Source of the DNA: Microbacterium sp. | Lineage (GTDB): Bacteria > Actinomycetota > Actinomycetes > Actinomycetales > Microbacteriaceae | DNA length: 64,000 nt | Assembly: GCF_036823965.1 (NCBI RefSeq) | Contig: NZ_DAITBE010000012.1 | Span: 18,522-82,521 of the forward strand | Direction: 5' to 3' | Part shown: positions 14,417 to 25,446 of the stretch, in pieces | How the letters are laid out: every line of letters begins with the position of its first letter | Position numbering within the stretch: the first letter of the stretch is position 1 | Made by a program: the position numbers and the translations under genes | The notes under the pieces: model-generated | What the model saw: the letters and a program-made list of their open reading frames with translations, nothing else | Database searches by the model: none | Told to the model about the DNA's origin: nothing

Positions 14417-15538
14417 TCAGCGCACGGGCAGAAAGTGCGTCGGCGTCGGCACCTGAGCCTGATGGCGGATGCCGAGGGGCGCCCCGGTGCGCTCGTCGAG
14501 GTCGAGCAGGCTGATCGTGTTCGAGCGCTGACCGGCGACCAGCAGCTTGCCCTCGTGCACGAGGTGGTGCCGCGGCCAGTCCACGCCGGAGTCGGCGAGG
14601 GCCGTCGGCTCGAGCGACTCGCCACCGCCGCGCACGCGGAGCGCTGCGATCGTGTTGCTGCCGCGCAGCGCGGTGTAGAGGAAGGCCCCGTCGCGCGTCC
14701 GGGCGAGCTCTGCGGGGAAGTCGACGCCGATCTCGGCGATCGGGCTCGCGAGCGCCACCGACACGACGTGCCAGGTGCCGTCGACGGCAGCCGCGAGCGT
14801 GAAGACCTCGCACGAGTACTCGGTCACGACGTGCAGGTGGCCGCTCGGATGCACGACCATATGCCGTGGCCCGGTGCCCTGCGGCAGCACGACCTCGTGA
14901 TCGAGGCGGAGTCCGTCGCCGGTCGGTCTCCAGATCCGCACGAGGTCGAACCCGAGGTCGGTCGTCGCGATGCGTCCGTCCGGGAGGAATGCAGCGGAGT
15001 GCGCGTGCGACGCACGGTCGGCGTCGTACGGATCGGATGCCGGTGCGCCGACGCCGGCGGGAAGCGGCGCGTCGGCAGCATCCGCCGACTCCGAACCGTC
15101 GTCCCCGAACAGCGCCGCCCGAAGCTCGGCCGCCTTGGCTGCACGGTCGCCGGCCGCAGGGACGAGTCCACCGGCGGCATCCAGTCCGATGCGCACGACG
15201 CGACCGTCGCCGTAGCAGCTGGCGATCAGCGAGTGCCCGTCGGGCGCGACCGCGAGGTGGCACACGGAGTCGCCCGCCGCGACCGGCTCGCCGAGCGGCG
15301 CCAGCGTCTGCTCGCCGGAGCGCGCGAACGCCTGCACTGCAGCATCCCCTTCGAGCGCAGCGTAGACGACGTCGAGTCGCGGATGCGCCGCCAGCCATGA
15401 GGGCGACGGCGTCCGGGTGACGGCCCCGCGATACGACAGGCTGTTCGCCTCACGTCCGGAGTCGCCGGCGAGCAGGCCGATGCCCTCGGCCTGCCCATCC
15501 ATGCCCTCGCCGTAGCCGCCGAGCCAGAACCGCGTCAT
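14417..15538 (-). CDS. lactonase, 7-bladed beta-propeller family (Pgl/YbhE-like)
   Basis: 373 aa with repeated blade-like segments (HPRLDVVYAA, GPRHMVVHPSGHLHVV, FLYTALRGSNTIA). Starts 10 nt downstream of the purA stop on the same strand. Confidence 0.7.
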   Translation of the reverse strand: MTRFWLGGYGEGMDGQAEGIGLLAGDSGREANSLSYRGAVTRTPSPSWLAAHPRLDVVYAALEGDAAVQAFARSGEQTLAPLGEPVAAGDSVCHLAVAPDGHSLIASCYGDGRVVRIGLDAAGGLVPAAGDRAAKAAELRAALFGDDGSESADAADAPLPAGVGAPASDPYDADRASHAHSAAFLPDGRIATTDLGFDLVRIWRPTGDGLRLDHEVVLPQGTGPRHMVVHPSGHLHVVTEYSCEVFTLAAAVDGTWHVVSVALASPIAEIGVDFPAELARTRDGAFLYTALRGSNTIAALRVRGGGESLEPTALADSGVDWPRHHLVHEGKLLVAGQRSNTISLLDLDERTGAPLGIRHQAQVPTPTHFLPVR

Positions 15539-15548
15539 GGCGGCGGAC

Positions 15549-16835
15549 TCAGTCGAGCAGGTCGTGGCGGACGATGACCTGGTCGCGCTCAGGGCCGACG
15601 CCGATCACCGAGATGCGGGTGTTGCTCATGCCCTCGAGCGCCAGCACGTAGTCCTGCGCGTTCTGCGGCAGGTCGTCGAAGGAGCGCGCGGTCGAGATGT
15701 CCTCGTTCCAGCCCGGGTAGTACTCCAGGATGGGCGTCGCGTGGTGGAAGTCGGTCTGGTTGACCGGCACCTCGTCGAAGCGCTCGCCGTCGACGTCGTA
15801 GGCCACGCAGACCGGGATGCGCTCGAGCCCCGTGAGGATGTCGAGCTTCGTCAGCACCAGGTCGGTGATGCCGTTGACCCGGGTCGCGTAGCGCGTGATG
15901 GGGGCGTCGTACCAGCCGACCCGGCGCGGACGGCCGGTCGTGGTGCCGAACTCGAAGCCGGCCGAGCGCAACCACTCGCCCTGCTCGTCGAACAGCTCGG
16001 TCGGGAACGGGCCGGAGCCGACACGGGTCGTGTACGCCTTGACGATGCCGACGATGCGGTCGAGCGCGCCGGGCCCGACGCCGGAGCCGGTGGATGCTCC
16101 GCCAGCCGTCGCCGACGACGAGGTCACGAACGGGTAGGTGCCGTGGTCGACGTCGAGCATGGTGGCCTGGCCGCCCTCGAACACGACGACCTCGCCGCGG
16201 TCGAGTGCCTGCGAGATGAGGTAGCCGGTGTCGGCGACCATCGGGCGCAGCCGCTCGGCGTAGGAGAGCAGGTCCTCCACGATCTCGTCGGCGGTGATGG
16301 CGCGACGGTTGAAGATCTTCACCAGCAGGTGGTTCTTCTGGTCGAGGGCGCCTTCGACCTTCTGGCGCAGGATGTTCTCGTCGAAGATGTCCTGCACGCG
16401 GATGCCGACGCGGTTGATCTTGTCGGCGTAGGCGGGTCCGATGCCGCGGCCGGTCGTGCCGATCATGCGCTTGCCGAGGAAGCGCTCGGTGACCTTGTCG
16501 AGCGTGCGGTGGTACGCCGTGATGATGTGCGCGTTGGCGCTGACGCGCAGCCGCGAGACGTCGATGCCACGGGCGGAGAGCGCCTCGAGCTCGAAGAAGA
16601 GCACCTCGAGGTCGATCACGACGCCGTTGCCGATCACCGGGTTCACGCCCGGGGAGAGGATGCCGGATGGCAGCAGGTGCAGCGCGTACTTCTCGTCGCC
16701 GACGACGACGGTGTGCCCGGCGTTGTTGCCGCCGTTGAACTTCACCACCCAGTCGGTGCGCTCACCGAGAAGATCGGTGGCCTTGCCTTTTCCTTCGTCG
16801 CCCCACTGCACGCCGACGATCACGATTCCTGGCAT
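15549..16835 (-). CDS. purA: adenylosuccinate synthase
   Basis: Track ORF trimmed to Met51 ([21 protein letters not shown]). [18 protein letters not shown] and the rest are colinear with PurA. 428 aa. Confidence 0.95.
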
Positions 16836-16939
16836 GGGTGTCCCCCCTGCTTTCGCCGGGTTTGCACCGGCCGATGAGCTGGCCCTCTTCGGGCGCTCCC
16901 ATCCTATCGGGAGGCCTGATTGCGCCCCTTCGGTCGAGC

Positions 16940-16996
16940 TCCGGTCGCAGTTGCTGCCGCCCCAGACCCGATGAGGCGGCAGCAAGTGCGACCGGA
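16940..16996. repeat. 57-bp palindromic intergenic element (family B)
   Basis: TCCGGTCGCAGTTGCTGCCGCC, then loop CCAGACCCGATGA, then GGCGGCAGCAAGTGCGACCGGA. This is a 22-bp stem with a single G-opposite-G mismatch. A second copy lies at 32261-32321 with a related loop (CCGGCGCGGATCA). Confidence 0.8.
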
Positions 16997-17097: not shown

Positions 17098-18030
17098 ATG
17101 TCAGAAGCCGTATCCGGCGACCCGGGCGTCCGCACCCCCGCCGCCGCCTCGAGGACGCAGGGACCCCTCGTCCTGATCGCCGCCCTGGTGACGGTCGTGC
17201 TCTGGGCATCCGCGTTCATCGGCATCCGCGGCGCGGGTCCGCACTACGACCCCGGCGCCCTGGCGCTGCTGCGCATGGCGGTCGGCAGCGTGGTGCTCGC
17301 GATCATCGCGGTGCGCCACGGCATCCGGCTTCCCGAGCGTCGGCACTGGTGGCTCATCGCCGTGTGGGGCGTCGGCTGGTTCTGCGTCTACAACCTCGCC
17401 CTCAACGCCGCAGAGCGCACGCTCGACGCGGGCACGGCTGCGATGGTGGTGAACCTCGCCCCGCTCATGGTCGTGATCTTCAGCGGGCTGTTCCTGCGCG
17501 AGGGATTCCCCAAGCCGCTGGTGATCGGCGCACCGATCGCCTTCCTCGGCGTCGTGCTGATCGGCATGAATTCGTCCACGAGCGAAGGCCCCGACATCAC
17601 CGGCCTGCTGCTCGCCCTCCTCGCCGCTGTCATGTACGCCGGCTGCACCCTGCTGCAGAAGCGCCTGCTCAGCGCCGGGACGGATGCGACGACGCTCACG
17701 TTCCTCGGCGCGGTCGCCGGGACCGTCGCCCTGCTGCCGTGGACGGGCAGCCTCATCGGCGCGCTGCAGTCCGCGCCGCTGGACGCCACCCTGTGGGTCG
17801 TCTACCTCGGCATCTTCCCCACTGCGATCGCCTTCACCACCTGGGCGTACGTGCTGCAGCGGAGCACCGCCGGTCAGACCTCGGCGACCACGTACGTCGT
17901 TCCGGCGATCGCGATCCTGATGTCCTGGGCGATCCTCGGCGAGGTGCCGACGCCGCTGATGTTCCTCGGCGGCGCACTGTGTCTCCTCGGCGTGCTGGTC
18001 ACCCGACTGCGGTGGCGAGGCCGCGGCTGA
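17098..18030 (+). CDS. EamA/DMT family transporter
   Basis: 310 aa, about 10 TM helices, two EamA-like halves. Start uncertain. Confidence 0.8.
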   Translation: MSEAVSGDPGVRTPAAASRTQGPLVLIAALVTVVLWASAFIGIRGAGPHYDPGALALLRMAVGSVVLAIIAVRHGIRLPERRHWWLIAVWGVGWFCVYNLALNAAERTLDAGTAAMVVNLAPLMVVIFSGLFLREGFPKPLVIGAPIAFLGVVLIGMNSSTSEGPDITGLLLALLAAVMYAGCTLLQKRLLSAGTDATTLTFLGAVAGTVALLPWTGSLIGALQSAPLDATLWVVYLGIFPTAIAFTTWAYVLQRSTAGQTSATTYVVPAIAILMSWAILGEVPTPLMFLGGALCLLGVLVTRLRWRGRG

Positions 18031-18037
18031 CCCCGGC

Positions 18038-19465
18038 TCAGCGCTTGCGCGCGATCGGCCGTGAGAGGCCGATCGCGTTCAGCGCGTCCGCGGCCAGCTT
18101 GCGCTTGAGCTCGAGCGCCTCGCCGATCTCGGCCGCGAGCCGTGGACGCGTCTGGATCAGCTGATCGATGATCGCCAGCGGCACTGACAGGACGGTCAGG
18201 ATGTCGGATGCCACGGCGACCGTCTGCGTGCGCTCCCTGGTCAGCGCGGTGTGCCCGATCATGTCACCGTGCTCCGCGACGGCGAAGTCGACTCGACCAC
18301 CATCGGCCTCGATGCCGAGCGCGGCACGACCCGAGACCACGATCAGCACGCGGTCAGGCACGACGCCGGAGCCCAGCACGAGCTCACCGACGCCGTATCG
18401 CTCGAGCCTGGTGCCGGCGAGGATCGCCTCACGGTCCTCGTCGCGAAGGTGCAGCGTCGGGCCGACCTTCTCGATGGCCTCGGCCAGCCGAGCGGGCTCG
18501 GCGATCGGATCGGTCGCGTCGCCGTCGAGCGCGAACCCACGGCGTCGTGACGCGTACCAGAGCCACGACAGGTACAACGAGAGCGCACGCTGCGCCTCCC
18601 CCGGGGCGTTCACGGGAATCGTGACCTCGTAGGCGCCCTTGCCGATGTAATCCACCTCGGCGCGTTCCTCCTGCAGGCGCATCGGCAGCGCCTCGGCGAC
18701 CTCGGCCAGCAGCGCCATGACCTCGTGCGGCGGGTCGTCGGTCGTGAAGGCGACGGTCGTCGTGGCCGAGTAGGTGCCGCTCGGCGCACTCATGTTCGTG
18801 AACGATGCACCGGAGAGCGTGGAGTTCGGCACGATCTGGATGCTGTTGCCGGTCTGGATGTGCACGGCGCGCCAGTTCACCTCGACCACGCGCCCCTTCA
18901 CGCCACCGGTGTCGAGCCAGTCGCCGATCTTGAAGGGCTGTTCGAACAGCAGCAGCAGGCCTGAGATGACACCGCCGACCGCGTTCTGCAGTGCGAGGCC
19001 GATCACGATCGACCCGACGCCGAGCGCCGTGAAGAGCCCCCCGACATCGGCCTCCCACACCCAGGAGAACAGCAGCGCGAGGCCGAGAGCCACCAGCACG
19101 AGCCGGGCGATCTCGAGGAAGATCGACGGGATGCGCTTGCGCCAGGAGTCGGGCGCCGCATTCGCGAACAGCGCGACGTTGAACGACGAGAGCACCAGCA
19201 GGATCACGAGGAAGCCGAACACCGTCGCGACCACTCGGGTCCAGACCTGGTCTGCCGGTGACTGGATCGCGAATGCCAGCAGCGCGAACAGCGCGCCGGC
19301 GGGGATCACGCCGTTGCGCAGCAGCCGCAGCGGTCCGGCGATCGGGCTGTTGCGCCGCCGCAGCCCGTTGATCAGCTCGGTGAGGACGACGAGCAGCACC
19401 GGCACGCCGACGGCGATCGCGATGACCCACCAGCCCCACCCGTCACGGAAGGCCTCGTCGAGCAT
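18038..19465 (-). CDS. MscS-family mechanosensitive channel with C-terminal cyclic-nucleotide-binding-like domain (bCNG-type architecture)
   Basis: Track ORF trimmed to Met27 (MLDEAFRDGWGWW). MscS pore/beta-domain signature GSIVIGLALQNAVGGVISGLLLLFEQPFKIGDWL...GRVVEVNWRAVHI. C-terminal beta-roll GELVLGSGVVPDRVLIVVSGRAAL...GDMIGHTALTRERTQTVAVA. The start lies 1 nt after the stop of the upstream cyclase gene. Confidence 0.85.
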   Translation of the reverse strand: MLDEAFRDGWGWWVIAIAVGVPVLLVVLTELINGLRRRNSPIAGPLRLLRNGVIPAGALFALLAFAIQSPADQVWTRVVATVFGFLVILLVLSSFNVALFANAAPDSWRKRIPSIFLEIARLVLVALGLALLFSWVWEADVGGLFTALGVGSIVIGLALQNAVGGVISGLLLLFEQPFKIGDWLDTGGVKGRVVEVNWRAVHIQTGNSIQIVPNSTLSGASFTNMSAPSGTYSATTTVAFTTDDPPHEVMALLAEVAEALPMRLQEERAEVDYIGKGAYEVTIPVNAPGEAQRALSLYLSWLWYASRRRGFALDGDATDPIAEPARLAEAIEKVGPTLHLRDEDREAILAGTRLERYGVGELVLGSGVVPDRVLIVVSGRAALGIEADGGRVDFAVAEHGDMIGHTALTRERTQTVAVASDILTVLSVPLAIIDQLIQTRPRLAAEIGEALELKRKLAADALNAIGLSRPIARKR

Positions 19466-19466
19466 G

Positions 19467-21626
19467 TCAGGCCACCTTCCAGACCGTCTCGGCCTTGCCG
19501 TGGGTCTCGATCGTTCCCGCCTCGACGAAGGTGAAGATCTCACGCGAGCGGTCGTACACGGTCTGGCTCACGTAGATGCCGGGTTCTCCTGTGACCGAGC
19601 GCACCCGGTAGGCGAGGTTCACGGCGTCGCCCCAGAGGTCGTAGGCGAGACTCGTGCGTCCGACCAGGCCGCTCGTGACCGTGCCGGTGTCGACACCGGC
19701 ACGGAGGCCGATCGCCGAACCGTTCTGGGCGTTGAACCGCTCGATCACGCCGAGCAGGTTGCGGGCGAAGTCGACGCTGCGCCGCACGTTGTCGACCCGC
19801 GGCACGACCAGTCCGGACGACGCGAGGTAGCCGCCGCGGAGCGTGCGGACCTTCTCGACCCCGGCCTTCTCCGCCGCCTCGTCGAAGCCGCGCATCAGCG
19901 TGTTCAGATGGCCGATCTCCTGATCGCCGGAGAGTCCGCGGGCGTAGTCGTCGAAGCCGATCAGCTCGGCGAACACGACCGACACGTTCTCGTGCGCCTC
20001 GGAGATCGTCTCGTCGCCCTGCTTGTACTTCGTCGCGACGCTCTCGGGCATGAGCGTGAGCAGCAGCTTCTCGTTCTCGGCCTGCTGGTCCTCGATCAGC
20101 TCCTGCTTGATGCGCAGGCTCGACGCCATGTCGTTGAACGCGCTGCCGAGGTCGCCGAACTCATCGCGAGAGCCCTGCGGCACCTGCACGTCGAGATCGC
20201 CCTCGGCGACACGATGCACGGCGCCGACGAGTCGATGGATGGGCCTCGTGAAGACCTGCGCCAGCAGCAGCGACAGCAGCGAGACGCCGAGCAGGATGCC
20301 GAGCAGCGAGAGCAGCACGATCCTCGTGAACTCGCTCACCGGCGCGAAGGCCTCTGCGGAGTCGATGCGCGCGACGATCACCCAATCGAGACCGTCGATC
20401 TCCAGGGGTGCATAGGCGGTCACGCTGTCACCGCCGAGATAGTCCCGTCCGGTCGTGGTGCCGCTGCGGCCGGTCTGCGCCTCCGCGACGGCCCTGGTGT
20501 TGATCGGCTGGAGCAGCACGCTGCCGCCCACCTCGATGATCCGTTTGGCGACGCTCGGCGGCGTGCCGCCGTTGATCGCGAGCTGTTCGTAGTGCTCCGG
20601 GTCCTCGATGAGTCGTCGGGCGTTGCTGCGCATCAGGTCGTCTCGCCCGACCAGGTACACCTCGCCGGTGTCCCCGAGCCCCTGCGCCTTCCAACCCTCC
20701 GATCCCGTCGTGAGGTCGTTGATGGTCTCGATCGACACCTGGAACGCCATCACGCCGGTGATCCGGCTGCTGTTGCCGACCGGCGACAGCACCCACATGG
20801 TCGGAACGTTGAGCGACGGGATCCAGCGCTCGAAGTCGGTCAGGACGACCGTGCTGACCGAGTTCGTGGCGATCGCATCCACGTACGCCTTCGCCAGGGA
20901 TGTGTCGCGGTACGGTCCGGCGAGGAGATTGGTGCCGAGCTCGGCGCCCTTGTAGGCGGAGAACACGACGTCGCCGTCGAGATTCATCAGCAGCGCGTCC
21001 TCATAGCCCGCTTCGTTGACGAGGCGCGTGTAGTAGTCGCCGTAGCGCTCGCTGGCGATGGCGTAGGCACTGCCGTCACCGGGGTCGTTGTCGTTCAGGA
21101 GGGTGTCGTAGTCCTCGTCGAAGTCGGTGTTCTCGACCGTGAACTTCGTCTGCAGGTACTGTCCGGCCGGGGATTCCGGGATGAACGCACTGTCCCCGTA
21201 CTGGTCGCCGGTGCGGGTCTCGAGCTCCGGGATGAACGTGTCGGTGTAGTACGCCTCGAGCTGCGCTCGCTCCTCGGGCGTCACCTCCCGCTGCTGGAGC
21301 TCCTCGAAGCCCGCGTTCACCTCGGTGGACAGTGTCTGCGCGCTGAGGTTGCGCGAGTGCAACGAGGCATCCCGCTTGATGCCCTCGATCGCGTCCGTGA
21401 TCTCGGCGGCGCGCATCGAGCGGATCGTGATGAGCTGATCGACCGCCGCGTCGTGCAGCGACTGCCGACCGTTCATGAAGCCGATGGCTCCGACGATCAC
21501 CGACGACACCAGGCTCACCGCCAGGAGCATGATGAGGAGTTTCGACTGGATGCTCAACCCGGCGCGGACCCGCTTCGGTCGCCCTTCGCCAGCGCTCTTC
21601 GTGGTGCTCACACCGGTGTCGCTCAT
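19467..21626 (-). CDS. membrane sensor protein: TM, large extracytoplasmic Cache-like domain, TM, HAMP, class III nucleotidyl cyclase-like domain
   Basis: 719 aa. TM1 LLIMLLAVSLVSSVIVGAIGF. Extracytoplasmic region of about 380 aa with Cache-like strands (DGDVVFSAYKG, GVMAFQVSIETINDL, GEVYLVGRDDLMRSN, DWVIVARID). TM2, then HAMP (RPIHRLVGAVHRVAEGDLDVQVP...DEFGDLGSAFNDMASSL). Cyclase-homology domain HENVSVVFAELIGF...VRTLRGGYLASSGL...YDLWGDAVNLAYRV. Confidence 0.85.
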   Translation of the reverse strand: MSDTGVSTTKSAGEGRPKRVRAGLSIQSKLLIMLLAVSLVSSVIVGAIGFMNGRQSLHDAAVDQLITIRSMRAAEITDAIEGIKRDASLHSRNLSAQTLSTEVNAGFEELQQREVTPEERAQLEAYYTDTFIPELETRTGDQYGDSAFIPESPAGQYLQTKFTVENTDFDEDYDTLLNDNDPGDGSAYAIASERYGDYYTRLVNEAGYEDALLMNLDGDVVFSAYKGAELGTNLLAGPYRDTSLAKAYVDAIATNSVSTVVLTDFERWIPSLNVPTMWVLSPVGNSSRITGVMAFQVSIETINDLTTGSEGWKAQGLGDTGEVYLVGRDDLMRSNARRLIEDPEHYEQLAINGGTPPSVAKRIIEVGGSVLLQPINTRAVAEAQTGRSGTTTGRDYLGGDSVTAYAPLEIDGLDWVIVARIDSAEAFAPVSEFTRIVLLSLLGILLGVSLLSLLLAQVFTRPIHRLVGAVHRVAEGDLDVQVPQGSRDEFGDLGSAFNDMASSLRIKQELIEDQQAENEKLLLTLMPESVATKYKQGDETISEAHENVSVVFAELIGFDDYARGLSGDQEIGHLNTLMRGFDEAAEKAGVEKVRTLRGGYLASSGLVVPRVDNVRRSVDFARNLLGVIERFNAQNGSAIGLRAGVDTGTVTSGLVGRTSLAYDLWGDAVNLAYRVRSVTGEPGIYVSQTVYDRSREIFTFVEAGTIETHGKAETVWKVA

Positions 21627-21752
21627 CCGCCGCCCTCCGTCGCCACGCCTCGAAGAGGCGCCCCTGGTGAGGAGGCTACCGATATACCGGGCCGTCGATC
21701 CAGCGTTCTTCCGAGAATGTCATCGCAGCGACACGAACCGCGATGAATCGAC

Positions 21753-22421
21753 TCAGCCCGGAAGCAGCGCCATGATCTCCCGGTGCACATGCCGGAACCA
21801 CTGCTCGGCGGCATCCCCATCCCTCGACACCATGGCGGCCCGCATCTGCCGGTAGCACTCGCCGCGTGACTCCGCCGTGCCCAGCATGACGTCGGTGCCA
21901 CGCAGGTTCCTGGTGACCAGCAGGTCGGCCGCGTACATCCCTGAGACGAAGAGCGGATTGCCGGACTGCCTGGTGAGGAACCCGACGAACATGCGGGCAG
22001 AGAGCATGAGGTCGGCCGCGTGATCGACGTCGGATGCCGCGATCATGCGATCGAGCAACGAGACGGCCTCGAGCATCGCGTCGTCATCCATCCGTCGCAC
22101 TGCGAGTTGGATGGCGACTCCTGCTTGGATGCCGGTGTATTCGAGCGTGTGCGCGATCGTCTCCGCGCTGACCGCGGTGACCTTGGTGAAGCGGTTCGGC
22201 GACACCTCGACGAGCCCGAGCCAGGAGAGATGCTGCAGCGCCTCCCGCACCGGAGTGCGGGAGATGTCGAGCGCCTCGGCGATCTCCTTGTCGCTCACCC
22301 GCTCTCCGGGGGCGAGCCTCCCGGACACGATCGCATCACTGATCGTCTCGAACACACGGTCGCCGAGCACTGCGCCCTGGCCCAACGGACCCAGCCTCGC
22401 CCGCAGGTGCGAATCGACCAT
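21753..22421 (-). CDS. GntR family transcriptional regulator (FadR/FCD subfamily)
   Basis: wHTH GERVSDKEIAEALDISRTPVREALQHLSWLGLVEVSPNRFTKV followed by a helical FCD-like domain. Met15 is preferred because of the purine-rich GGAAGGCAGGA upstream; Met8 or Met1 are possible. Confidence 0.8.
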   Translation of the reverse strand: MVDSHLRARLGPLGQGAVLGDRVFETISDAIVSGRLAPGERVSDKEIAEALDISRTPVREALQHLSWLGLVEVSPNRFTKVTAVSAETIAHTLEYTGIQAGVAIQLAVRRMDDDAMLEAVSLLDRMIAASDVDHAADLMLSARMFVGFLTRQSGNPLFVSGMYAADLLVTRNLRGTDVMLGTAESRGECYRQMRAAMVSRDGDAAEQWFRHVHREIMALLPG

Positions 22422-22528
22422 GATTCCTGCCTTCCCCGTCATCCGTGCGCCCCCAGAGCGCACCCGAGCCGTCGATGAATCGGGTGATCACGACAGCATC
22501 GGGTATGAGCCATGTATAGCGATATGTT

Positions 22529-22546
22529 GCCGCTTTCGAAAGCGGC
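22529..22546. promoter_or_regulatory. perfect 18-bp palindrome in the GntR / Pr6Pr divergent intergenic region
   Basis: GCCGCTTTCGAAAGCGGC, in the lowest-GC part of the 189-bp gap. Confidence 0.35.
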
Positions 22547-22610
22547 ATCCGCATCCGAAAACCGCAATCGCATCCCGCGACCGCACCGCTACAGTGGCGA
22601 CGGAGGCGAA

Positions 22611-23306
22611 ATGAAGACCTGGTGGCCCTACGCCCGCATCGCGGCATCCATCCTCGCACTGGCGGCGATCATCGCCCAGCTGGCGAGATCGATGCAGAAC
22701 GCGCTCGAGTCGAGCACCGAGTGGGGCTCGCACGTGCCGACGGTCGCGGCGAACTTCCTCAGCTTCTTCACGATCGAGGCGAACCTCCTCGCAGCCATCG
22801 TGCTGGCAATCGGTGCGATCTGGGCGCTCCGGCACCGTGGGTCGGACACCCCGGAGCCGCGCTGGTTCGCGATCCTGCTGGTCTGCGTGAGCACCTACAT
22901 GATCGTCACCGGCATCGTCTACAACATCCTCCTCCGCGGGGTGGAGCTCCCGCAGGGCGCGACCGTGCCGTGGTCGAACGAGGTGCTGCACGTCGTCATC
23001 CCGCTGTTCCTGCTCGTCGATGTGCTGTTCGCGCCTCGGCGCAGGGCGCTCGGGTGGAACGCCATCTTCATCACCGCGATCTTCCCGATCGTGTGGGCCG
23101 TCTACACGCTCGTCCGCGCGAACCTCATCGTCGCGCCGGCCACCGGCGATCCCTGGTGGTACCCGTATCCCTTCCTCGACCCGCACCGCGTCCCCGGCGG
23201 GTATCTCGGCGTCTCCGGCTACATCATCGGCATCGCGATCGCGGTGATCGGCGTCGCGGCCGGCGTCGTCTGGATCGGCCGCCGCCGCGGCACCCGCGCC
23301 CCCTGA
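22611..23306 (+). CDS. Pr6Pr-family (FAR-17a/AIG1-like) integral membrane protein
   Basis: Track ORF trimmed to Met34 (MKTWWPYARIAASILALAAIIAQL) with GGAGG upstream. Six predicted TM helices. NFLSFFTIEANLL motif. Confidence 0.6.
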   Translation: MKTWWPYARIAASILALAAIIAQLARSMQNALESSTEWGSHVPTVAANFLSFFTIEANLLAAIVLAIGAIWALRHRGSDTPEPRWFAILLVCVSTYMIVTGIVYNILLRGVELPQGATVPWSNEVLHVVIPLFLLVDVLFAPRRRALGWNAIFITAIFPIVWAVYTLVRANLIVAPATGDPWWYPYPFLDPHRVPGGYLGVSGYIIGIAIAVIGVAAGVVWIGRRRGTRAP

Positions 23307-23430: not shown

Positions 23431-24519
<1,089 letters not shown>

Positions 24520-24558: not shown

Positions 24559-25446
24559 ATGGCCAGTCTGATCGCGCAGGTGAAGAGCAAGCTCTTCATC
24601 CATTCGTCGCGCACCTCGATGCATGCGCTCGACGGCGCCTACGCATCGCTGCTGCACGGGCGCAGTCTCGACTTCGAGGACCTGCGCAAGTACGAGTACG
24701 GCGATCAGGTGCGCGACATCGACTGGCGGGCGACCGCGCGGCTCGGCACTCCCCTGGTCAAGCGGCACAGGGCGACCCGCATGCACACCATCCTCTTCGT
24801 GGTCGACACCGGCAGGTCGATGGCCGCGCTGGCCGCCGATGAGCAGTCGAAGAAGGACCTGACGATCCTCGCGACAGGTGCCCTCGGCGTGCTGACCCTG
24901 CGCCATGGTGACGACTTCACCGCCGTGTACGGAGACGCCGCGCGCGTGCGTCGTCTCGCTCCCGGGCGCAGCGAGGGTGCGCTCGAGCACGCCCTGCGCA
25001 CGATCGATCGGGCGATCGACGAGAGCTCGCACCCGAGCGACCGCGACGCCCTGCTCTCGTATGTGACCCGCACGATCTCGCGCCGCATGATCGTGGTGGT
25101 CGTCACCGACGAGGCGCCGATCACCGACGAGACCGAGCGGATGCTGCGCCGACTGCGCGTGCAGCACGACGTGCTCTGGCTCACGGTCCGCGATGCCGAG
25201 CCGGTGCTCGACCACACGACCGACCGCAGCCGCCGAGACGTGGACAGCCGCTGGGAGGTGCCGGACTTCGTGCAGGGCGACCTGGGCATCGTGCAGGAGC
25301 TGGCGGCGCAGACCGCGGCGGATGCCGCGCACCTCGCCGAGACGCTGCAGCGCATGGAGATCAGTCACGCCGTGCTCGACGGACAGGCGGATGCGGTGGC
25401 GCAGCTGCTGCACCTGCTGAACCGGAGGTCGAATGCCCGGTTCTGA
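24559..25446 (+). CDS. DUF58 domain protein (MoxR-associated, VWA-like)
   Basis: GRSLDFEDLRKYEYGDQVRDIDWRATARLGTPLVKRH is the DUF58 hallmark. Confidence 0.85.
   Translation: MASLIAQVKSKLFIHSSRTSMHALDGAYASLLHGRSLDFEDLRKYEYGDQVRDIDWRATARLGTPLVKRHRATRMHTILFVVDTGRSMAALAADEQSKKDLTILATGALGVLTLRHGDDFTAVYGDAARVRRLAPGRSEGALEHALRTIDRAIDESSHPSDRDALLSYVTRTISRRMIVVVVTDEAPITDETERMLRRLRVQHDVLWLTVRDAEPVLDHTTDRSRRDVDSRWEVPDFVQGDLGIVQELAAQTAADAAHLAETLQRMEISHAVLDGQADAVAQLLHLLNRRSNARF

What the first reader, a model, noticed from the sequence alone, without database searches (positions are those of the whole stretch)
18038..21626. Cache-HAMP cyclase-like sensor lacking both canonical metal-binding aspartates, translationally coupled to a cNMP-domain MscS channel
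The sensor gene stop (19467-19469) and the channel start (19465) are 1 nt apart, so the two genes form a single unit. A GntR regulator gene sits 126 bp upstream on the same strand. The channel has the MscS core plus a C-terminal cyclic-nucleotide-binding-like beta-roll, which is the architecture described as bCNG. That makes a cyclase-to-channel second-messenger circuit the obvious reading. My by-eye alignment of the cyclase domain to the class III consensus (F-[AST]-D-[IL]-x-G-F and K-x-[IL]-G-D-x-[YF]-[ML]) complicates this. Glu554 (FAELIGF, codon 19965-19967) and Gly598 (RTLRGGYL, codon 19833-19835) fall at the two Mg/Mn-binding Asp positions. Arg594 falls at the purine-specifying Lys. The partner-side residues Asp663, Asn670 and Arg674 (YDLWGDAVNLAYR) are retained. 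This pattern resembles the catalytically incomplete C2 half of mammalian cyclases. A homodimer would therefore be predicted to be weak or inactive. It may need a C1-like partner encoded elsewhere, or it may act as a pseudo-enzyme receptor that talks to the channel directly. The channel phosphate-binding cassette keeps the Arg (RTQTV) but reads GD instead of GE.
Basis: partly seen in the sequence, partly recalled or inferred. Interest (0 to 1): 0.7.

Follow-up and report, generated by a model that had tools for sequence, protein, structure and literature searches.

The report
Dead-cyclase sensor paired with MscS channel
A membrane sensor whose cyclase-like domain has lost the residues needed to make cyclic nucleotides is always encoded directly upstream of a pressure-valve-type ion channel whose own cyclic-nucleotide pocket is also atypical, in every relative examined across Actinobacteria, which suggests the two signal to each other by a route other than the textbook second messenger.

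Summary
Window 19467-21626(-) encodes a 719-aa dCache-HAMP-cyclase-homology (CHD) sensor. Its TGA stop lies 1 nt before the ATG of a 475-aa MscS channel with a C-terminal CNB fold (18038-19465). Ungapped HMM alignment to solved cyclases puts Glu554 and Gly598 at the two metal-binding Asp positions and Arg594 at the substrate Lys position.

This is a clade feature. In 83 of 83 related loci (39-83% identity), the channel gene follows the sensor within 31 nt or less. The loci come from Microbacteriaceae, Mycobacterium and an Acidimicrobiia MAG. None of 84 sensors has the canonical catalytic set. No second cyclase lies within 5 kb.

In metagenomes, 45 fully canonical cyclase domains have no channel neighbour. 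All 9 channel-linked sensors are degenerate, each in a different way.

The canonical Glu is His405, the canonical Arg is Thr413, and the co-evolving loop Gly is Pro370.

My best reading (about 0.45) is a non-catalytic, remodelled pseudo-cyclase receptor that couples directly to its cognate channel. The rivals are an unorthodox cyclase or a C2-like subunit with a distant partner. GntR is not part of the module. I rate it a new variant of a known kind.

The parts
19467..21626 (-). Sensor gene, 719 aa. Layout: TM1 (about residues 29-51), periplasmic dCache, TM2 (about 436-459), HAMP, signalling helix, cyclase-homology domain.
   Evidence: ORF list; Pfam; identical public gene call; 100% match to the NCBI entry 'adenylate/guanylate cyclase domain-containing protein [Microbacterium sp.]'.
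20370..21047 (-). dCache_1 match (residues 194-419) within the periplasmic region of about residues 52-435. The ligand is unknown.
   Evidence: Pfam PF02743, 47.1 bits against a cutoff of 45. No sequence relatives among solved structures.
20112..20267 (-). HAMP domain (residues 454-505).
   Evidence: Pfam PF00672, 60.1 bits. It is the most conserved segment among orthologues (0.96 mean column identity).
20004..20111 (-). Helical linker / cyclase-transducer-type helix (residues 506-541, '...ENEKLLLTLMPESVATKYKQG').
   Evidence: Aligns with the helix preceding AC9/AC5 catalytic domains. AF2 predicts helices at model residues 2-33. The best Foldseek hit is the M. intracellulare Cya soluble domain (TM 0.82).
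19488..20003 (-). Cyclase-homology domain (residues 542-713) with a remodelled active site.
- E554: codon 19965-19967
- D559: 19950-19952
- R594: 19845-19847
- R597: 19836-19838
- G598: 19833-19835
- D663: 19638-19640
- N670: 19617-19619
- R674: 19605-19607
   Evidence: Pfam 110.7 bits; residue mapping by phmmer to AC9 C1/C2; conservation; fold.
19463..19478 (-). Gene junction. An AAGGTGG SD-like motif (19478-19472) lies inside the last sensor codons, followed by TGA (19469-19467), 1 nt, then the channel ATG (19465-19463).
   Evidence: Sequence. Across 83 related loci the stop/start spacing is -8 to +31 nt: 38 are ATGA/GTGA overlaps, 10 are TGATG/TAATG-type 1-nt overlaps and 11 have a 1-nt gap.
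18038..19465 (-). Channel gene, 475 aa. About five TM helices, an MscS pore helix and beta domain, an alpha-beta domain, and a C-terminal CNB-fold domain.
   Evidence: Pfam. Best solved relatives are YnaI and MscS. Identical public gene call.
18788..19111 (-). MscS core (residues 119-226): the pore-lining helix 'GSIVIGLALQNAVGGVISG' plus the beta domain.
   Evidence: Pfam MS_channel_1st/2nd; alignment to YnaI; most conserved part of the channel (0.89-0.92).
18041..18505 (-). CNB-fold domain and C-terminal helix (residues 321-475). The non-canonical phosphate-binding cassette spans residues 400-419 (18209-18268).
- H405: 18251-18253
- R410: 18236-18238
- R412: 18230-18232
- T413: 18227-18229
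- P370: 18356-18358
   Evidence: Pfam 32.2 bits. AF2 pLDDT is 88.9. Foldseek hits the MloK1 CNBD at TM 0.75/0.83, plus CRP, PKG and SthK. Register comes from profile alignment. Conservation.
21627..21752 (-). 126-nt upstream intergenic region. It contains GGAGGG (21638-21633), 6 nt before the ATG, and a conserved near-palindrome CCGGTATATCGGTAG (21690-21676).
   Evidence: Sequence. The motif CGGTATATCG is conserved upstream of the sensor in five other Microbacterium loci, including ones without GntR. No Rfam family was found, and the fold is no more stable than shuffles (z -0.66).
21753..22463 (-). GntR/FCD regulator gene (public call 21753-22421). It is a neighbour, not a conserved member of the module.
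   Evidence: Pfam GntR and FCD. A homologue is present upstream in only about 7 of 83 related loci.

Best explanation
The two genes form one ancient, co-inherited signalling unit.

The sensor is a dimeric transmembrane receptor: an extracytoplasmic dCache ligand-binding domain, then HAMP, a signalling helix and a cyclase-homology domain (CHD). Its CHD keeps the class IIIa fold. The two-metal catalytic centre, however, has been remodelled: Glu554 replaces Asp, Gly598 replaces Asp, Arg594 replaces Lys, a new base sits at 597 and a new acid at 559. It is therefore very probably not a working adenylate or guanylate cyclase.

The channel is a heptameric MscS-type pore with a CNB-fold domain. That domain lacks the canonical cyclic-phosphate Arg, the ribose Glu and the co-evolving loop Gly.

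I propose the following route. Ligand binding at dCache is passed through HAMP and the helix to the CHD dimer. The CHD dimer then acts as a conformational output, or as a nucleotide-sensing pseudo-enzyme, on the CNB-homology domains of its cognate, co-translated channel and biases gating. No canonical cAMP or cGMP made by this protein would be involved.

Shown: the architecture, strict pairing, non-canonical sites in both partners, purifying selection on both, and the link between channel pairing and catalytic degeneracy.

Inferred: physical contact, the direction of signalling, and the effect on gating.
For: 1. Catalytic residues. Ungapped alignment to AC9 C1 and C2 places E554 and G598 at the metal Asps and R594 at the Lys. 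These residues are fixed in 118-121 of 121 close orthologues.

2. Clade level. In 84 channel-linked sensors, metal-2 is N41/G21/Q10/E5/S3/K2/A1/H1 and never an unambiguous Asp. The Lys position is R81/H3. The transition-state Arg is lost in 30 and the Asn is changed in 32.

3. Pairing. 83/83 loci from 39 to 83% identity carry the channel gene immediately downstream on the same strand, mostly with overlapping stop and start codons. The flanking genes differ between loci.

4. Specificity.
- In metagenomes, 45 CHDs with the full D-K-G-D-D-N-R set and at least 1.5 kb of downstream sequence have no channel.
- Twelve of those 45 belong to dCache-HAMP-type sensors: ten matched along nearly the whole sensor and two are N-terminally truncated by the contig end.
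- All 9 channel-linked sensors are degenerate in different ways: DKGSDNH, EKGTDNA, DKGDDLL, EKGGDTR x3, EKGDDMA, EKGADSK and EKGGDTK.
- An NJ tree separates the canonical sensors from all channel-linked ones.

5. The CHD is not decaying. Mean column identity is 0.89, against 0.80 for dCache. The pocket is remodelled and conserved: position 559 is acidic in 82/84 and position 597 is basic in 79/84. The two features co-occur among family representatives.

6. The receptor side is also non-canonical. The PBC Glu is H/Q/L, the Arg position is T/V, and the loop Gly is Pro in 77/80. Published CNBs on MS channels have GEIALLTGGPRTATVRA, and the Arg co-evolves with that Gly (PMC2246266).

7. Paralogous pairs coexist in one genome, and the sensor and channel clusters co-segregate. 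Within-cluster identity is 0.59-0.72 and between-cluster identity is 0.41-0.45 for both proteins. This favours cognate specificity over a shared diffusible pool.

8. No second CHD lies within +-5 kb in any of the 83 loci or anywhere in the window.
Against: - No biochemical data exist.
- Glu can ligate metals, and Asp/Glu559 could supply a second carboxylate, so an unorthodox active site is not excluded.
- In this particular orthogroup D663, N670 (mostly) and R674 are retained. These residues are needed only for substrate binding or catalysis.
- The CNB cassette keeps an invariant Arg410 and a strictly conserved G-x-T-A-L-T-R-E motif. That motif could bind a phosphate ligand.
- No sensor-channel fusion protein was found. 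The long relatives are globin fusions, and the Leifsonia 'fusion' is a 1-nt frameshift.
- Physical interaction was not modelled.
- Co-divergence of the two proteins (r = 0.74) is expected from shared ancestry alone.
Confidence: 0.45

Rival explanations
1. An unorthodox but real cyclase. The CHD homodimer would still make a cyclic nucleotide, possibly an unusual one, using Glu554 plus Asp559 (or one metal plus Arg597) in place of the two Asps. The product would act locally on the channel's atypical CNB pocket through Arg410.
For: - D663, R674 and mostly N670 are kept in this orthogroup.
- The acidic residues at 554 (80/84) and 559 (82/84) are conserved.
- The CNB motif G-x-T-A-L-T-R-E with invariant R410 is strictly conserved.
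- The CNB fold is intact.
- Adjacent, translationally coupled genes are the classic layout for a producer-receptor pair.
Against: - Every solved class III cyclase whose catalytic residues were examined here carries both metal-binding Asps (PMC4174876). That all characterised active class III cyclases do so rests on my own knowledge of the family.
- C2 homodimers lacking the Asps are inactive (PMC4174876).
- Position 598 varies freely (N/G/Q/E/S/K/A/H), and R674 and N670 are lost in many clade members. This does not fit conserved chemistry.
- The broader channel-linked group has no conserved Arg anywhere in the cassette.
Confidence: 0.22
2. A C2-like regulatory subunit. The sensor would supply the substrate and transition-state side (D663, N670, R674) to a heterodimer with a C1-like cyclase encoded elsewhere. 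One active site and one pseudo-site would result, as in mammalian ACs, sGC or chytrid NeoR/RGC.
For: - The best solved match is the C2 domain of AC9 (77.7 bits against 67.8 for C1).
- The metal side is degenerate and the partner side is retained in this orthogroup.
- Heterodimers with one degenerate cyclase domain have precedent (PMC3591389 and PMC12264004, listed).
Against: - The Lys is Arg in 81/84 sensors. R674 is Gln or another residue in 30/84, including most mycobacterial members.
- No second CHD lies within +-5 kb in 83 loci or anywhere in the 64-kb window.
- Each sensor has its own TM, HAMP and helix, which favours parallel homodimers.
- This model does not explain why pairing with the channel, rather than with a cyclase, is the universal feature.
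Confidence: 0.12
3. A receptor for the global nucleotide pool. The remodelled CHD pocket and/or the CNB domain would bind ATP or cAMP made by other cyclases. The pair would then integrate an extracellular cue with the cell's energy or cAMP state, without direct CHD-CNB contact.
For: - The pocket residues R594, D663 and D/E554 are conserved.
- Degenerate enzyme domains that become receptors for their former substrate or product are well known. The degenerate GGDEF/EAL receptors are an example (my own knowledge).
Against: - Several paralogous pairs per genome, with co-segregating sensor and channel lineages, argue for pair-specific coupling.
- The canonical cNMP contacts are missing in the CNB domain.
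Confidence: 0.1
4. Co-transcribed but functionally independent. The channel would be an ordinary osmotic safety valve, and the sensor would signal to something else.
For: - bCNG-type channels are poorly understood and did not protect E. coli from downshock (PMC13591265).
- There is no direct evidence of interaction.
Against: - 83/83 adjacency, with overlapping stop and start codons, persists from Microbacteriaceae to Mycobacterium and Acidimicrobiia despite changing flanks.
- The association with catalytic degeneracy is perfect in this sample.
Confidence: 0.05

Closest known systems
bCNG channels (bacterial cyclic nucleotide-gated MscS homologues; Caldwell et al. 2010, Malcolm et al. 2012, as cited in PMC13591265) and the 'Channel_Bact' CNB family of Kannan et al. 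2007 (PMC2246266)
   Same: Both have an MscS pore helix and beta domain followed by a C-terminal CNB-fold domain.
   Different: - The published family consensus cassette is canonical: GEIALLTGGPRTATVRA.
- Here the Glu is His (Gln or Leu in relatives), the Arg position is Thr or Val, the cassette is one residue shorter, and the beta2-beta3 Gly is Pro.
- This channel has about five TM helices, like YnaI.
- It is always preceded by a degenerate cyclase-like sensor.
- The review describes bCNG as occurring in Gram-negative bacteria, mostly cyanobacteria. These channels are actinobacterial.
M. tuberculosis Rv2435c / Rv2434c
   Same: - Rv2435c is described as a dCache-containing adenylate cyclase (PMC4822843) of the 'mammalian type' alongside Rv1625c (PMC3961136).
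- Rv2434c, the next gene on the same strand, is described as a membrane protein with possible cyclic-nucleotide binding (PMC11205783).
- 33 environmental Mycobacterium/Mycolicibacterium loci carry the same pair.
   Different: - Orthology to the M. tuberculosis genes was not tested. Their sequences were not retrievable, and M. tuberculosis was not in the top 120.
- That the Rv2434c/Rv2435c adjacency was noted in the 2000-2004 genome surveys is my recollection only.
- I found no paper in the held library describing the catalytic degeneracy as a clade feature tied to the channel.
Mammalian adenylyl cyclase C2 domain, sGC beta1 and other degenerate class III halves
   Same: - The class IIIa fold is shared. 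The best sequence hit is AC9 C2, and AC C2 chains and sGC beta are among the top Foldseek hits.
- The metal-binding Asps are missing while YD..N..R is kept.
- C2 and sGC beta homodimers are inactive (PMC4174876; PMC3591389).
   Different: - Those domains work with a C1 or alpha partner in the same protein or complex. Here no partner is encoded nearby.
- The Lys is Arg, and many clade members also lack the Asn and Arg.
- The conserved partner is a channel, not a cyclase.
Rv1625c/Cya and M. intracellulare Cya (homodimeric class IIIa cyclases)
   Same: They are the closest solved bacterial relatives (E about 1e-33; Foldseek TM 0.82). They share the helical transducer segment before the CHD.
   Different: Rv1625c has all six catalytic residues: Asp256, Asp300, Lys296, Asp365, Asn372 and Arg376 (PMC4174876). 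The window protein has E, G, R, D, N, R at the corresponding motif positions. It carries a dCache-HAMP front end instead of a 6-TM anchor.
CNB-homology domains that do not bind cyclic nucleotides (CooA, CprK and NtcA-type regulators; KCNH channel CNBHD)
   Same: The CNB fold is retained, with a non-canonical cassette lacking the phosphate Arg (PMC2246266). NtcA is among the Foldseek hits.
   Different: Those bind haem, chlorophenols or 2-oxoglutarate, or an intrinsic peptide (the KCNH case is from my own knowledge). The ligand here is unknown, if one exists, and an alternative invariant Arg410 is present.

Membership tests
Class III nucleotidyl cyclase (catalytically competent) | Cyclase-homology domain fold | tested here: met
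   Pfam PF00211, 110.7 bits against a cutoff of 21.9. The AF2 model matches Cya, Rv1625c, AC and sGC at TM 0.7-0.82.
Class III nucleotidyl cyclase (catalytically competent) | Two metal-binding aspartates (Asp256/Asp300 in Rv1625c; FADIVGF and GD in AC9 C1) | tested here: not met
   Glu554 and Gly598 occupy these positions in an ungapped alignment. The same holds in 118-121 of 121 orthologues. No unambiguous Asp at the second site in 84 clade members.
Class III nucleotidyl cyclase (catalytically competent) | Substrate-specifying pair (Lys + Asp for ATP; Glu + Cys for GTP) | tested here: not met
   Arg594 replaces the Lys (R81/H3 of 84). Asp663 is present (79/84).
Class III nucleotidyl cyclase (catalytically competent) | Transition-state Asn and Arg | tested here: met
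   N670 and R674 are present in the window protein. They are variable in the clade: N 52/84 and R 54/84.
Class III nucleotidyl cyclase (catalytically competent) | Measured cyclase activity | not testable with these tools
   Requires an enzyme assay.
bCNG / CNB-bearing MscS channels | MscS pore helix and beta domain | tested here: met
   PF00924 at 69 bits and PF21088. Matches YnaI and MscS at E 1e-16 to 1e-10.
bCNG / CNB-bearing MscS channels | C-terminal cyclic-nucleotide-binding fold | tested here: met
   PF00027 at 32.2 bits against a cutoff of 27.5. AF2 pLDDT is 88.9. Foldseek hits the MloK1 CNBD at TM 0.75/0.83.
bCNG / CNB-bearing MscS channels | Canonical phosphate-binding cassette (FGE...PR[ST]A; family consensus GEIALLTGGPRTATVRA) | tested here: not met
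   Profile alignment gives Glu->His405, Arg->Thr413 and loop Gly->Pro370. Across the clade, position 405 is Q/L/S/H and position 413 is V/T/A/S. The consensus comes from PMC2246266.
bCNG / CNB-bearing MscS channels | Gating or growth phenotype dependent on cAMP/cGMP | not testable with these tools
   Requires electrophysiology or binding assays.
dCache_1-HAMP transmembrane receptors | Periplasmic double-Cache domain between two TM helices, followed by HAMP | tested here: met
   PF02743 at 47.1 bits (cutoff 45) and PF00672 at 60.1 bits. Hydrophobic segments at about residues 29-51 and 436-459 are visible in the sequence.
C2-like subunit of a heterodimeric cyclase | A C1-like partner with both metal Asps, encoded in the same protein, operon or genome | tested here: inconclusive
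   No second CHD in the 64-kb window or within +-5 kb in 83 related loci. The rest of the genome could not be scanned.
Pycsar anti-phage system (cyclase + CNB effector) | PycC-type cyclase and a PycTM/PycTIR effector | tested here: not met
   PADLOC gives only an 18.6-bit generic PycC match and nothing for the channel. The pair is vertically conserved across actinobacterial families.
GntR-regulated three-gene unit | GntR regulator conserved next to the pair | tested here: not met
   A GntR homologue is upstream in about 7 of 83 loci. It is absent in Arthrobacter sp. HY1533 and in most other loci.

The most novel reading that the evidence does not exclude
The cyclase-homology domain and the CNB-homology domain would be a former enzyme-receptor pair that has been converted into a direct protein-protein signalling interface. 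An extracellular chemoreceptor (dCache-HAMP-pseudo-cyclase) would gate a dedicated MscS-type pore with no cyclic nucleotide involved. In effect this would be a two-protein ligand-gated channel. It would be conserved across Actinobacteria, including mycobacteria, and often present as several insulated paralogous pairs per genome.
Probability: 0.33. Interest if true: 0.8.

Novelty: new variant of a known kind. Interest (0 to 1): 0.64.

Why it matters
Class III cyclases and CNB domains are textbook second-messenger parts, and annotation pipelines label both proteins accordingly.

If a whole, widespread clade has abandoned the canonical chemistry on both the producer and the receiver side while keeping the two genes welded together, three things follow:
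- Counts of 'adenylate cyclases' in actinobacterial genomes, including mycobacteria, would be inflated by pseudo-enzymes. GTDB species representatives alone gave at least 594 relatives.
- MscS-type channels could be gated by a chemoreceptor, which would give a concrete physiological role to the poorly understood bCNG-like channels.
- It would provide a natural example of an enzyme-receptor pair turned into a direct interface.

The question is directly testable with a few purified domains and spheroplast patch-clamp.

Tried and rejected
1. A second, C1-like cyclase nearby. tblastn with the CHD found nothing else in the 64-kb window and nothing within +-5 kb in 83 loci.

2. GntR as part of the unit. 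Rejected: it is conserved upstream in only about 7 of 83 loci.

3. A natural sensor-channel fusion as proof of physical coupling.
- The 1234-aa ORF in Leifsonia aquatica (L021) comes from a 1-nt frameshift near the CHD C-terminus. The normal C-terminus and the GTG...TGA overlap are still readable in the other frame. It is probably an assembly error.
- Long family representatives (838-874 aa) are dCache-HAMP-CHD-globin fusions, not channel fusions.

4. An anti-phage Pycsar-like system. Rejected.

5. A riboswitch or other RNA element, sigma-70 promoter or intrinsic terminator around the genes. None was found. The leader fold is no more stable than shuffles.

6. A direct test of orthology to M. 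tuberculosis Rv2435c/Rv2434c. The third homologue search, seeded with a mycobacterial profile, returned only environmental mycobacteria. The full texts of the 2000 and 2004 surveys and the 2011 review were not available.

7. A ligand hint for the dCache domain. There are no sequence relatives among solved structures and no specific NCBIfam family.

8. The first alignment for the genome scan was too diverse to yield a search pattern. A narrower one worked.

Full report
**What is there**

On the minus strand of the window, a 719-aa ORF (19467-21626) is followed by a 475-aa ORF (18038-19465).

- Pfam assigns the first ORF dCache_1 (residues 194-419), HAMP (454-505) and Guanylate_cyc (542-713, 110.7 bits).
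- Pfam assigns the second ORF the MscS TM and beta domains plus cNMP_binding (356-439, 32.2 bits against a cutoff of 27.5).
- The sensor's TGA (19469-19467) is separated by one base from the channel's ATG (19465). An AAGGTGG Shine-Dalgarno-like motif lies in the last sensor codons.
- A GntR/FCD gene ends 126 nt upstream of the sensor.
- A convergent EamA transporter gene ends 7 nt from the channel's stop.
- The protein is 100% identical to a Microbacterium sp. entry. The public gene calls on the identical 1.2-Mb contig give the same two genes.

**The catalytic residues**

phmmer against all PDB sequences gives the best hits to mammalian AC9, AC5 and AC8 and to the mycobacterial Cya/Rv1625c proteins.

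- The alignment to AC9 C1 is ungapped for about 145 residues. 'vvfaELigf' falls on 'ilfaDIvgf', and 'ekvRtlRGgylassg' falls on 'ekisTlGDcyycvag'. Glu554 and Gly598 therefore sit at the two metal-binding Asps, and Arg597 replaces the Gly before the second one.
- Against C2, 'ekiKtiGatymaasg' puts Arg594 on the substrate Lys. 'yDiwgdtvNiasR' matches Asp663, Asn670 and Arg674.
- The roles of these six residues in Rv1625c (Asp256, Asp300, Lys296, Asp365, Asn372, Arg376), and the inactivity of C2 homodimers lacking the metal ligands, are stated in PMC4174876.
- An AF2 model of residues 503-719 (pLDDT 77) matches M. intracellulare Cya (TM 0.82), Rv1625c, sGC beta and AC C2 and C1. The fold, including the preceding signalling helix, is intact.
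- Among the 120 closest homologues (70-100% identity) E554, R594, D663 and R674 are invariant. G598 is present in 118/121 and N670 in 102/121, with Ser in 19. The CHD is more conserved than the dCache domain (0.89 against 0.80).

**It is a clade, not a quirk**

A HMMER scan of 1.84 billion cluster representatives found 3198 relatives below 1e-30.

- Of the 142 best full-length representatives, only 17 have both metal Asps and only 11 have the full canonical D-K-G-D-D-N-R set.
- A scan of one genome per GTDB species with a family alignment confirmed at least 594 relatives. It returned the best 80 loci (39-83% identity):
  - 19 Microbacterium
  - 2 Leucobacter
  - 8 other Microbacteriaceae
  - 1 Promicromonospora
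  - 33 Mycobacterium/Mycolicibacterium
  - 16 unclassified actinobacterial MAGs
  - 1 Acidimicrobiia MAG
- Adding three loci from Leucobacter luti and Arthrobacter sp. HY1533, all 83 have a homologue of the channel immediately downstream on the same strand, covering the CNB region.
- Stop/start spacing is -4 (ATGA/GTGA) in 38, -1 in 10, -8 in 6 and +1 in 11, and never more than 31 nt.
- Flanking genes differ between genera. A GntR homologue is upstream in only about 7 loci.
- No locus has a second cyclase domain within 5 kb, and the 64-kb window has none either.

**Catalytic positions across the 84 channel-linked sensors**

| Position | Canonical | Observed |
|---|---|---|
| metal-1 (554) | Asp | D50 / E30 / Q3 / T1 |
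| Lys position (594) | Lys | R81 / H3 |
| Gly before metal-2 (597) | Gly | R53 / H25 / other 6 |
| metal-2 (598) | Asp | N41 / G21 / Q10 / E5 / S3 / K2 / A1 / H1 |
| D663 | Asp | D79 |
| Asn670 | Asn | N52 / S19 / D12 / Q1 |
| Arg674 | Arg | R54 / Q24 / other 6 |

Three sequences have a one-residue insertion that could place an Asp at metal-2. Those three have Gln at metal-1 and Ala at D663. No member has the canonical set.

The pocket is remodelled rather than eroded. The Thr of the canonical G-F-T phosphate loop is Asp or Glu in 82/84, and position 597 is basic in 79/84. Among family representatives, a basic 597 occurs almost only together with an acidic 559 (17/31/1/96, Fisher 1e-8; not corrected for phylogeny).

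**The control: canonical relatives**

I scanned metagenome contigs with an alignment of canonical (Lys-type) dCache-HAMP-cyclases.

- Of the cyclase domains recovered, 45 carry the full canonical set and have at least 1.5 kb of downstream sequence. None has an MscS/CNB homologue anywhere in its locus.
- Twelve of those 45 belong to dCache-HAMP-type sensors. Ten matched along nearly the whole sensor, and two are N-terminally truncated by the contig end.
- Nine loci do have the channel directly downstream. All nine sensors are degenerate, each differently: DKGSDNH, EKGTDNA, DKGDDLL (both metal Asps kept, Asn and Arg lost), EKGGDTR x3, EKGDDMA, EKGADSK and EKGGDTK.
- A neighbour-joining tree puts all canonical sensors in one group, with all channel-linked sensors on the other side of the split. 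There is no bootstrap, so this is indicative only.

In this sample, channel linkage and loss of canonical catalytic residues go together without exception, and the losses are mosaic. That is the pattern expected if catalysis stopped being selected once the sensor became tied to the channel.

**The channel's 'cyclic nucleotide' domain**

- An AF2 model of residues 321-475 (pLDDT 88.9) has the short cassette helix at residues 405-409. It matches the MloK1 CNBD (TM 0.75/0.83), CRP/GlxR, PKG, SthK and HCN. The fold is genuine.
- A profile of 25 family CNB regions, aligned to PKG and CAP structures, gives this register: canonical F-G-E = I-G404-H405, canonical Pro = R412, canonical Arg = T413, and the beta2-beta3 loop Gly = P370.
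- Across 80 actinobacterial channels, position 405 is Q42/L18/S8/H4, position 412 is P38/R17 and position 413 is V34/T20/A8/S7. P370 is Pro in 77. A different Arg (R410) is conserved in 77.
- The nine more distant channel-linked channels have no conserved Arg in the cassette at all.
- Kannan et al. (PMC2246266) list CNBs attached to mechanosensitive channels with a canonical cassette, GEIALLTGGPRTATVRA. They also show that the phosphate Arg co-evolves with the beta2-beta3 Gly, and that families lacking them bind other ligands such as haem or chlorophenols.

This channel is therefore bCNG-like in architecture but fails the canonical cassette test. The receiver side of the presumed circuit is as atypical as the producer side.

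**Cognate pairs**

- Sensor-sensor and channel-channel identities across 78 pairs correlate (r = 0.74; Mantel 0/999). This is expected from co-inheritance.
- More telling, distinct paralogous lineages of the pair coexist. Examples are L026 and L027 in one Mycobacterium MAG, and two lineages within Microbacterium.
- The channel lineages track the sensor lineages. Within-lineage identity is 0.59-0.72 and between-lineage identity is 0.41-0.45 for both proteins.
- Several insulated pairs in one cell are easier to reconcile with pair-specific coupling than with a shared diffusible messenger.

**How it most likely works**

Shown:
- a dCache-HAMP-helix-CHD receptor with a fold-intact but non-canonical active site
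- an MscS-type channel with a fold-intact but non-canonical CNB domain
- universal, translationally coupled adjacency
- purifying selection on both
- degeneracy tied to linkage

Inferred:
- The CHD dimer no longer performs two-metal catalysis.
- It acts as the conformational output of the receptor, or as a nucleotide-sensing pseudo-enzyme, on the CNB-homology domains of its own channel. An extracellular chemical cue would thereby bias gating of the pore.

I give this about 0.45.

The main rival (about 0.22) is an unorthodox cyclase using Glu554, Asp559 and Arg597, whose product is read through Arg410. The retention of D663, N670 and R674 in this orthogroup, and the strictly conserved G-x-T-A-L-T-R-E cassette, keep that alive.

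The C2-like-subunit idea (about 0.12) is weakened by three points: Arg replaces Lys everywhere, Arg674 and Asn670 are lost in many members, and no nearby partner exists. It cannot be excluded without whole-genome surveys.

**Relation to what is known**

- The architecture of each protein is known: class IIIa CHD receptors and bCNG-type channels.
- The M. tuberculosis genes Rv2435c and Rv2434c very probably belong to this family. Rv2435c is a dCache cyclase of 'mammalian type' (PMC4822843, PMC3961136). Rv2434c is a membrane protein with possible cNMP binding (PMC11205783). I could not retrieve their sequences to test this. That their adjacency was noted in early genome surveys is my recollection only.
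- In the held literature I found no description of the following:
  - the clade-wide, mosaic loss of catalytic residues
  - its perfect association with the channel
  - the matching non-canonical cassette in the channel

I therefore rate this a new variant of a known kind.

**Other checks**

- No Rfam family, sigma-70-like promoter or intrinsic terminator was found in 17.0-23.5 kb.
- The 126-nt leader is not unusually structured. It contains a near-palindrome, CCGGTATATCGGTAG (21690-21676), conserved upstream of the sensor in five other Microbacterium loci, including loci without GntR. This suggests the pair has its own promoter or operator.
- PADLOC gives only a generic 18.6-bit PycC match.
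- NCBIfam has no specific family for either protein.

Noticed in passing
Representatives P0300, P0311, P0321, P0337, P0349, P0359: Relatives of the sensor carry a C-terminal globin domain after the cyclase-homology domain (dCache-HAMP-CHD-globin, 838-874 aa). All six have heavily degenerate catalytic positions, e.g. HNSTSYS and RSGESNR. This is another case where a dead CHD sits between a sensor and a further module.
   Followed up: partly
Representative set P0241-P0390: Among 142 full-length family representatives (50% clusters), only 11 have the full canonical catalytic set and only 17 have both metal Asps. Pseudo-cyclases seem to dominate this dCache-HAMP-CHD neighbourhood. The sample may be biased by the degenerate query.
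   Followed up: partly
L021:4812-8516 (Leifsonia aquatica DSM 20146): The sensor and channel read as one 1234-aa ORF. A 1-nt frameshift near the CHD C-terminus causes this. The normal C-terminus and the GTG...TGA overlap are visible in the other frame. It is probably an assembly error rather than a real fusion.
   Followed up: yes
L086:4947-9187, L087:103-7064, L163:5046-9476 (metagenome contigs): Fully canonical dCache-HAMP-cyclase genes occur in tandem: two full-length copies in L086 and in L087, and three cyclase domains in L163. None has a channel. The canonical branch expands by tandem duplication.
   Followed up: no
window 21676-21690 (minus strand): The near-palindromic motif CCGGTATATCGGTAG lies about 50 nt upstream of the sensor ATG. 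Its core CGGTATATCG is conserved in five other Microbacterium loci, including loci with no GntR upstream. It could be a -10 region or an operator.
   Followed up: partly
window 21646-21660 (minus strand): A small GC-rich hairpin, cgcctc-ttc-gaggcg, lies about 20 nt upstream of the sensor start. It is not conserved in the alignment, and the leader as a whole is no more stable than shuffles.
   Followed up: partly
L026 and L027 (same Mycobacterium MAG, JACPVR01); L051 vs the window-type pair in Microbacterium rhizomatis: Two diverged copies of the sensor-channel pair (about 45% identity for both proteins) coexist in one genome. The channel lineage tracks the sensor lineage.
   Followed up: partly
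window 22512-23306 (+), 23431-24519 (+), 24559-25446 (+): Divergent from the GntR gene lie a Pr6Pr-family membrane protein gene, then a MoxR-type AAA ATPase gene, then a DUF58 gene. The last two form a typical MoxR-DUF58 pair.
   Followed up: no
window 15549-16985 (-), 14417-15538 (-): purA (adenylosuccinate synthase, 618 bits) and a lactonase-like beta-propeller gene lie beyond the convergent EamA transporter gene (17098-18030 +). They are ordinary housekeeping context.
   Followed up: no
Sensor residue 670 (window 19617-19619) in orthologues: The transition-state Asn is Ser in 19 of 121 close orthologues and in Leucobacter, while every other listed position stays fixed. This hints that even within the closest group this residue is not under catalytic constraint.
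   Followed up: partly
window 22223-22330 (+): A sub-threshold Rfam match to Streptomyces sRNA Scr5676 (24.3 bits against a gathering threshold of 56, E 0.16) lies inside the GntR coding region on the opposite strand. It is most likely chance.
   Followed up: no
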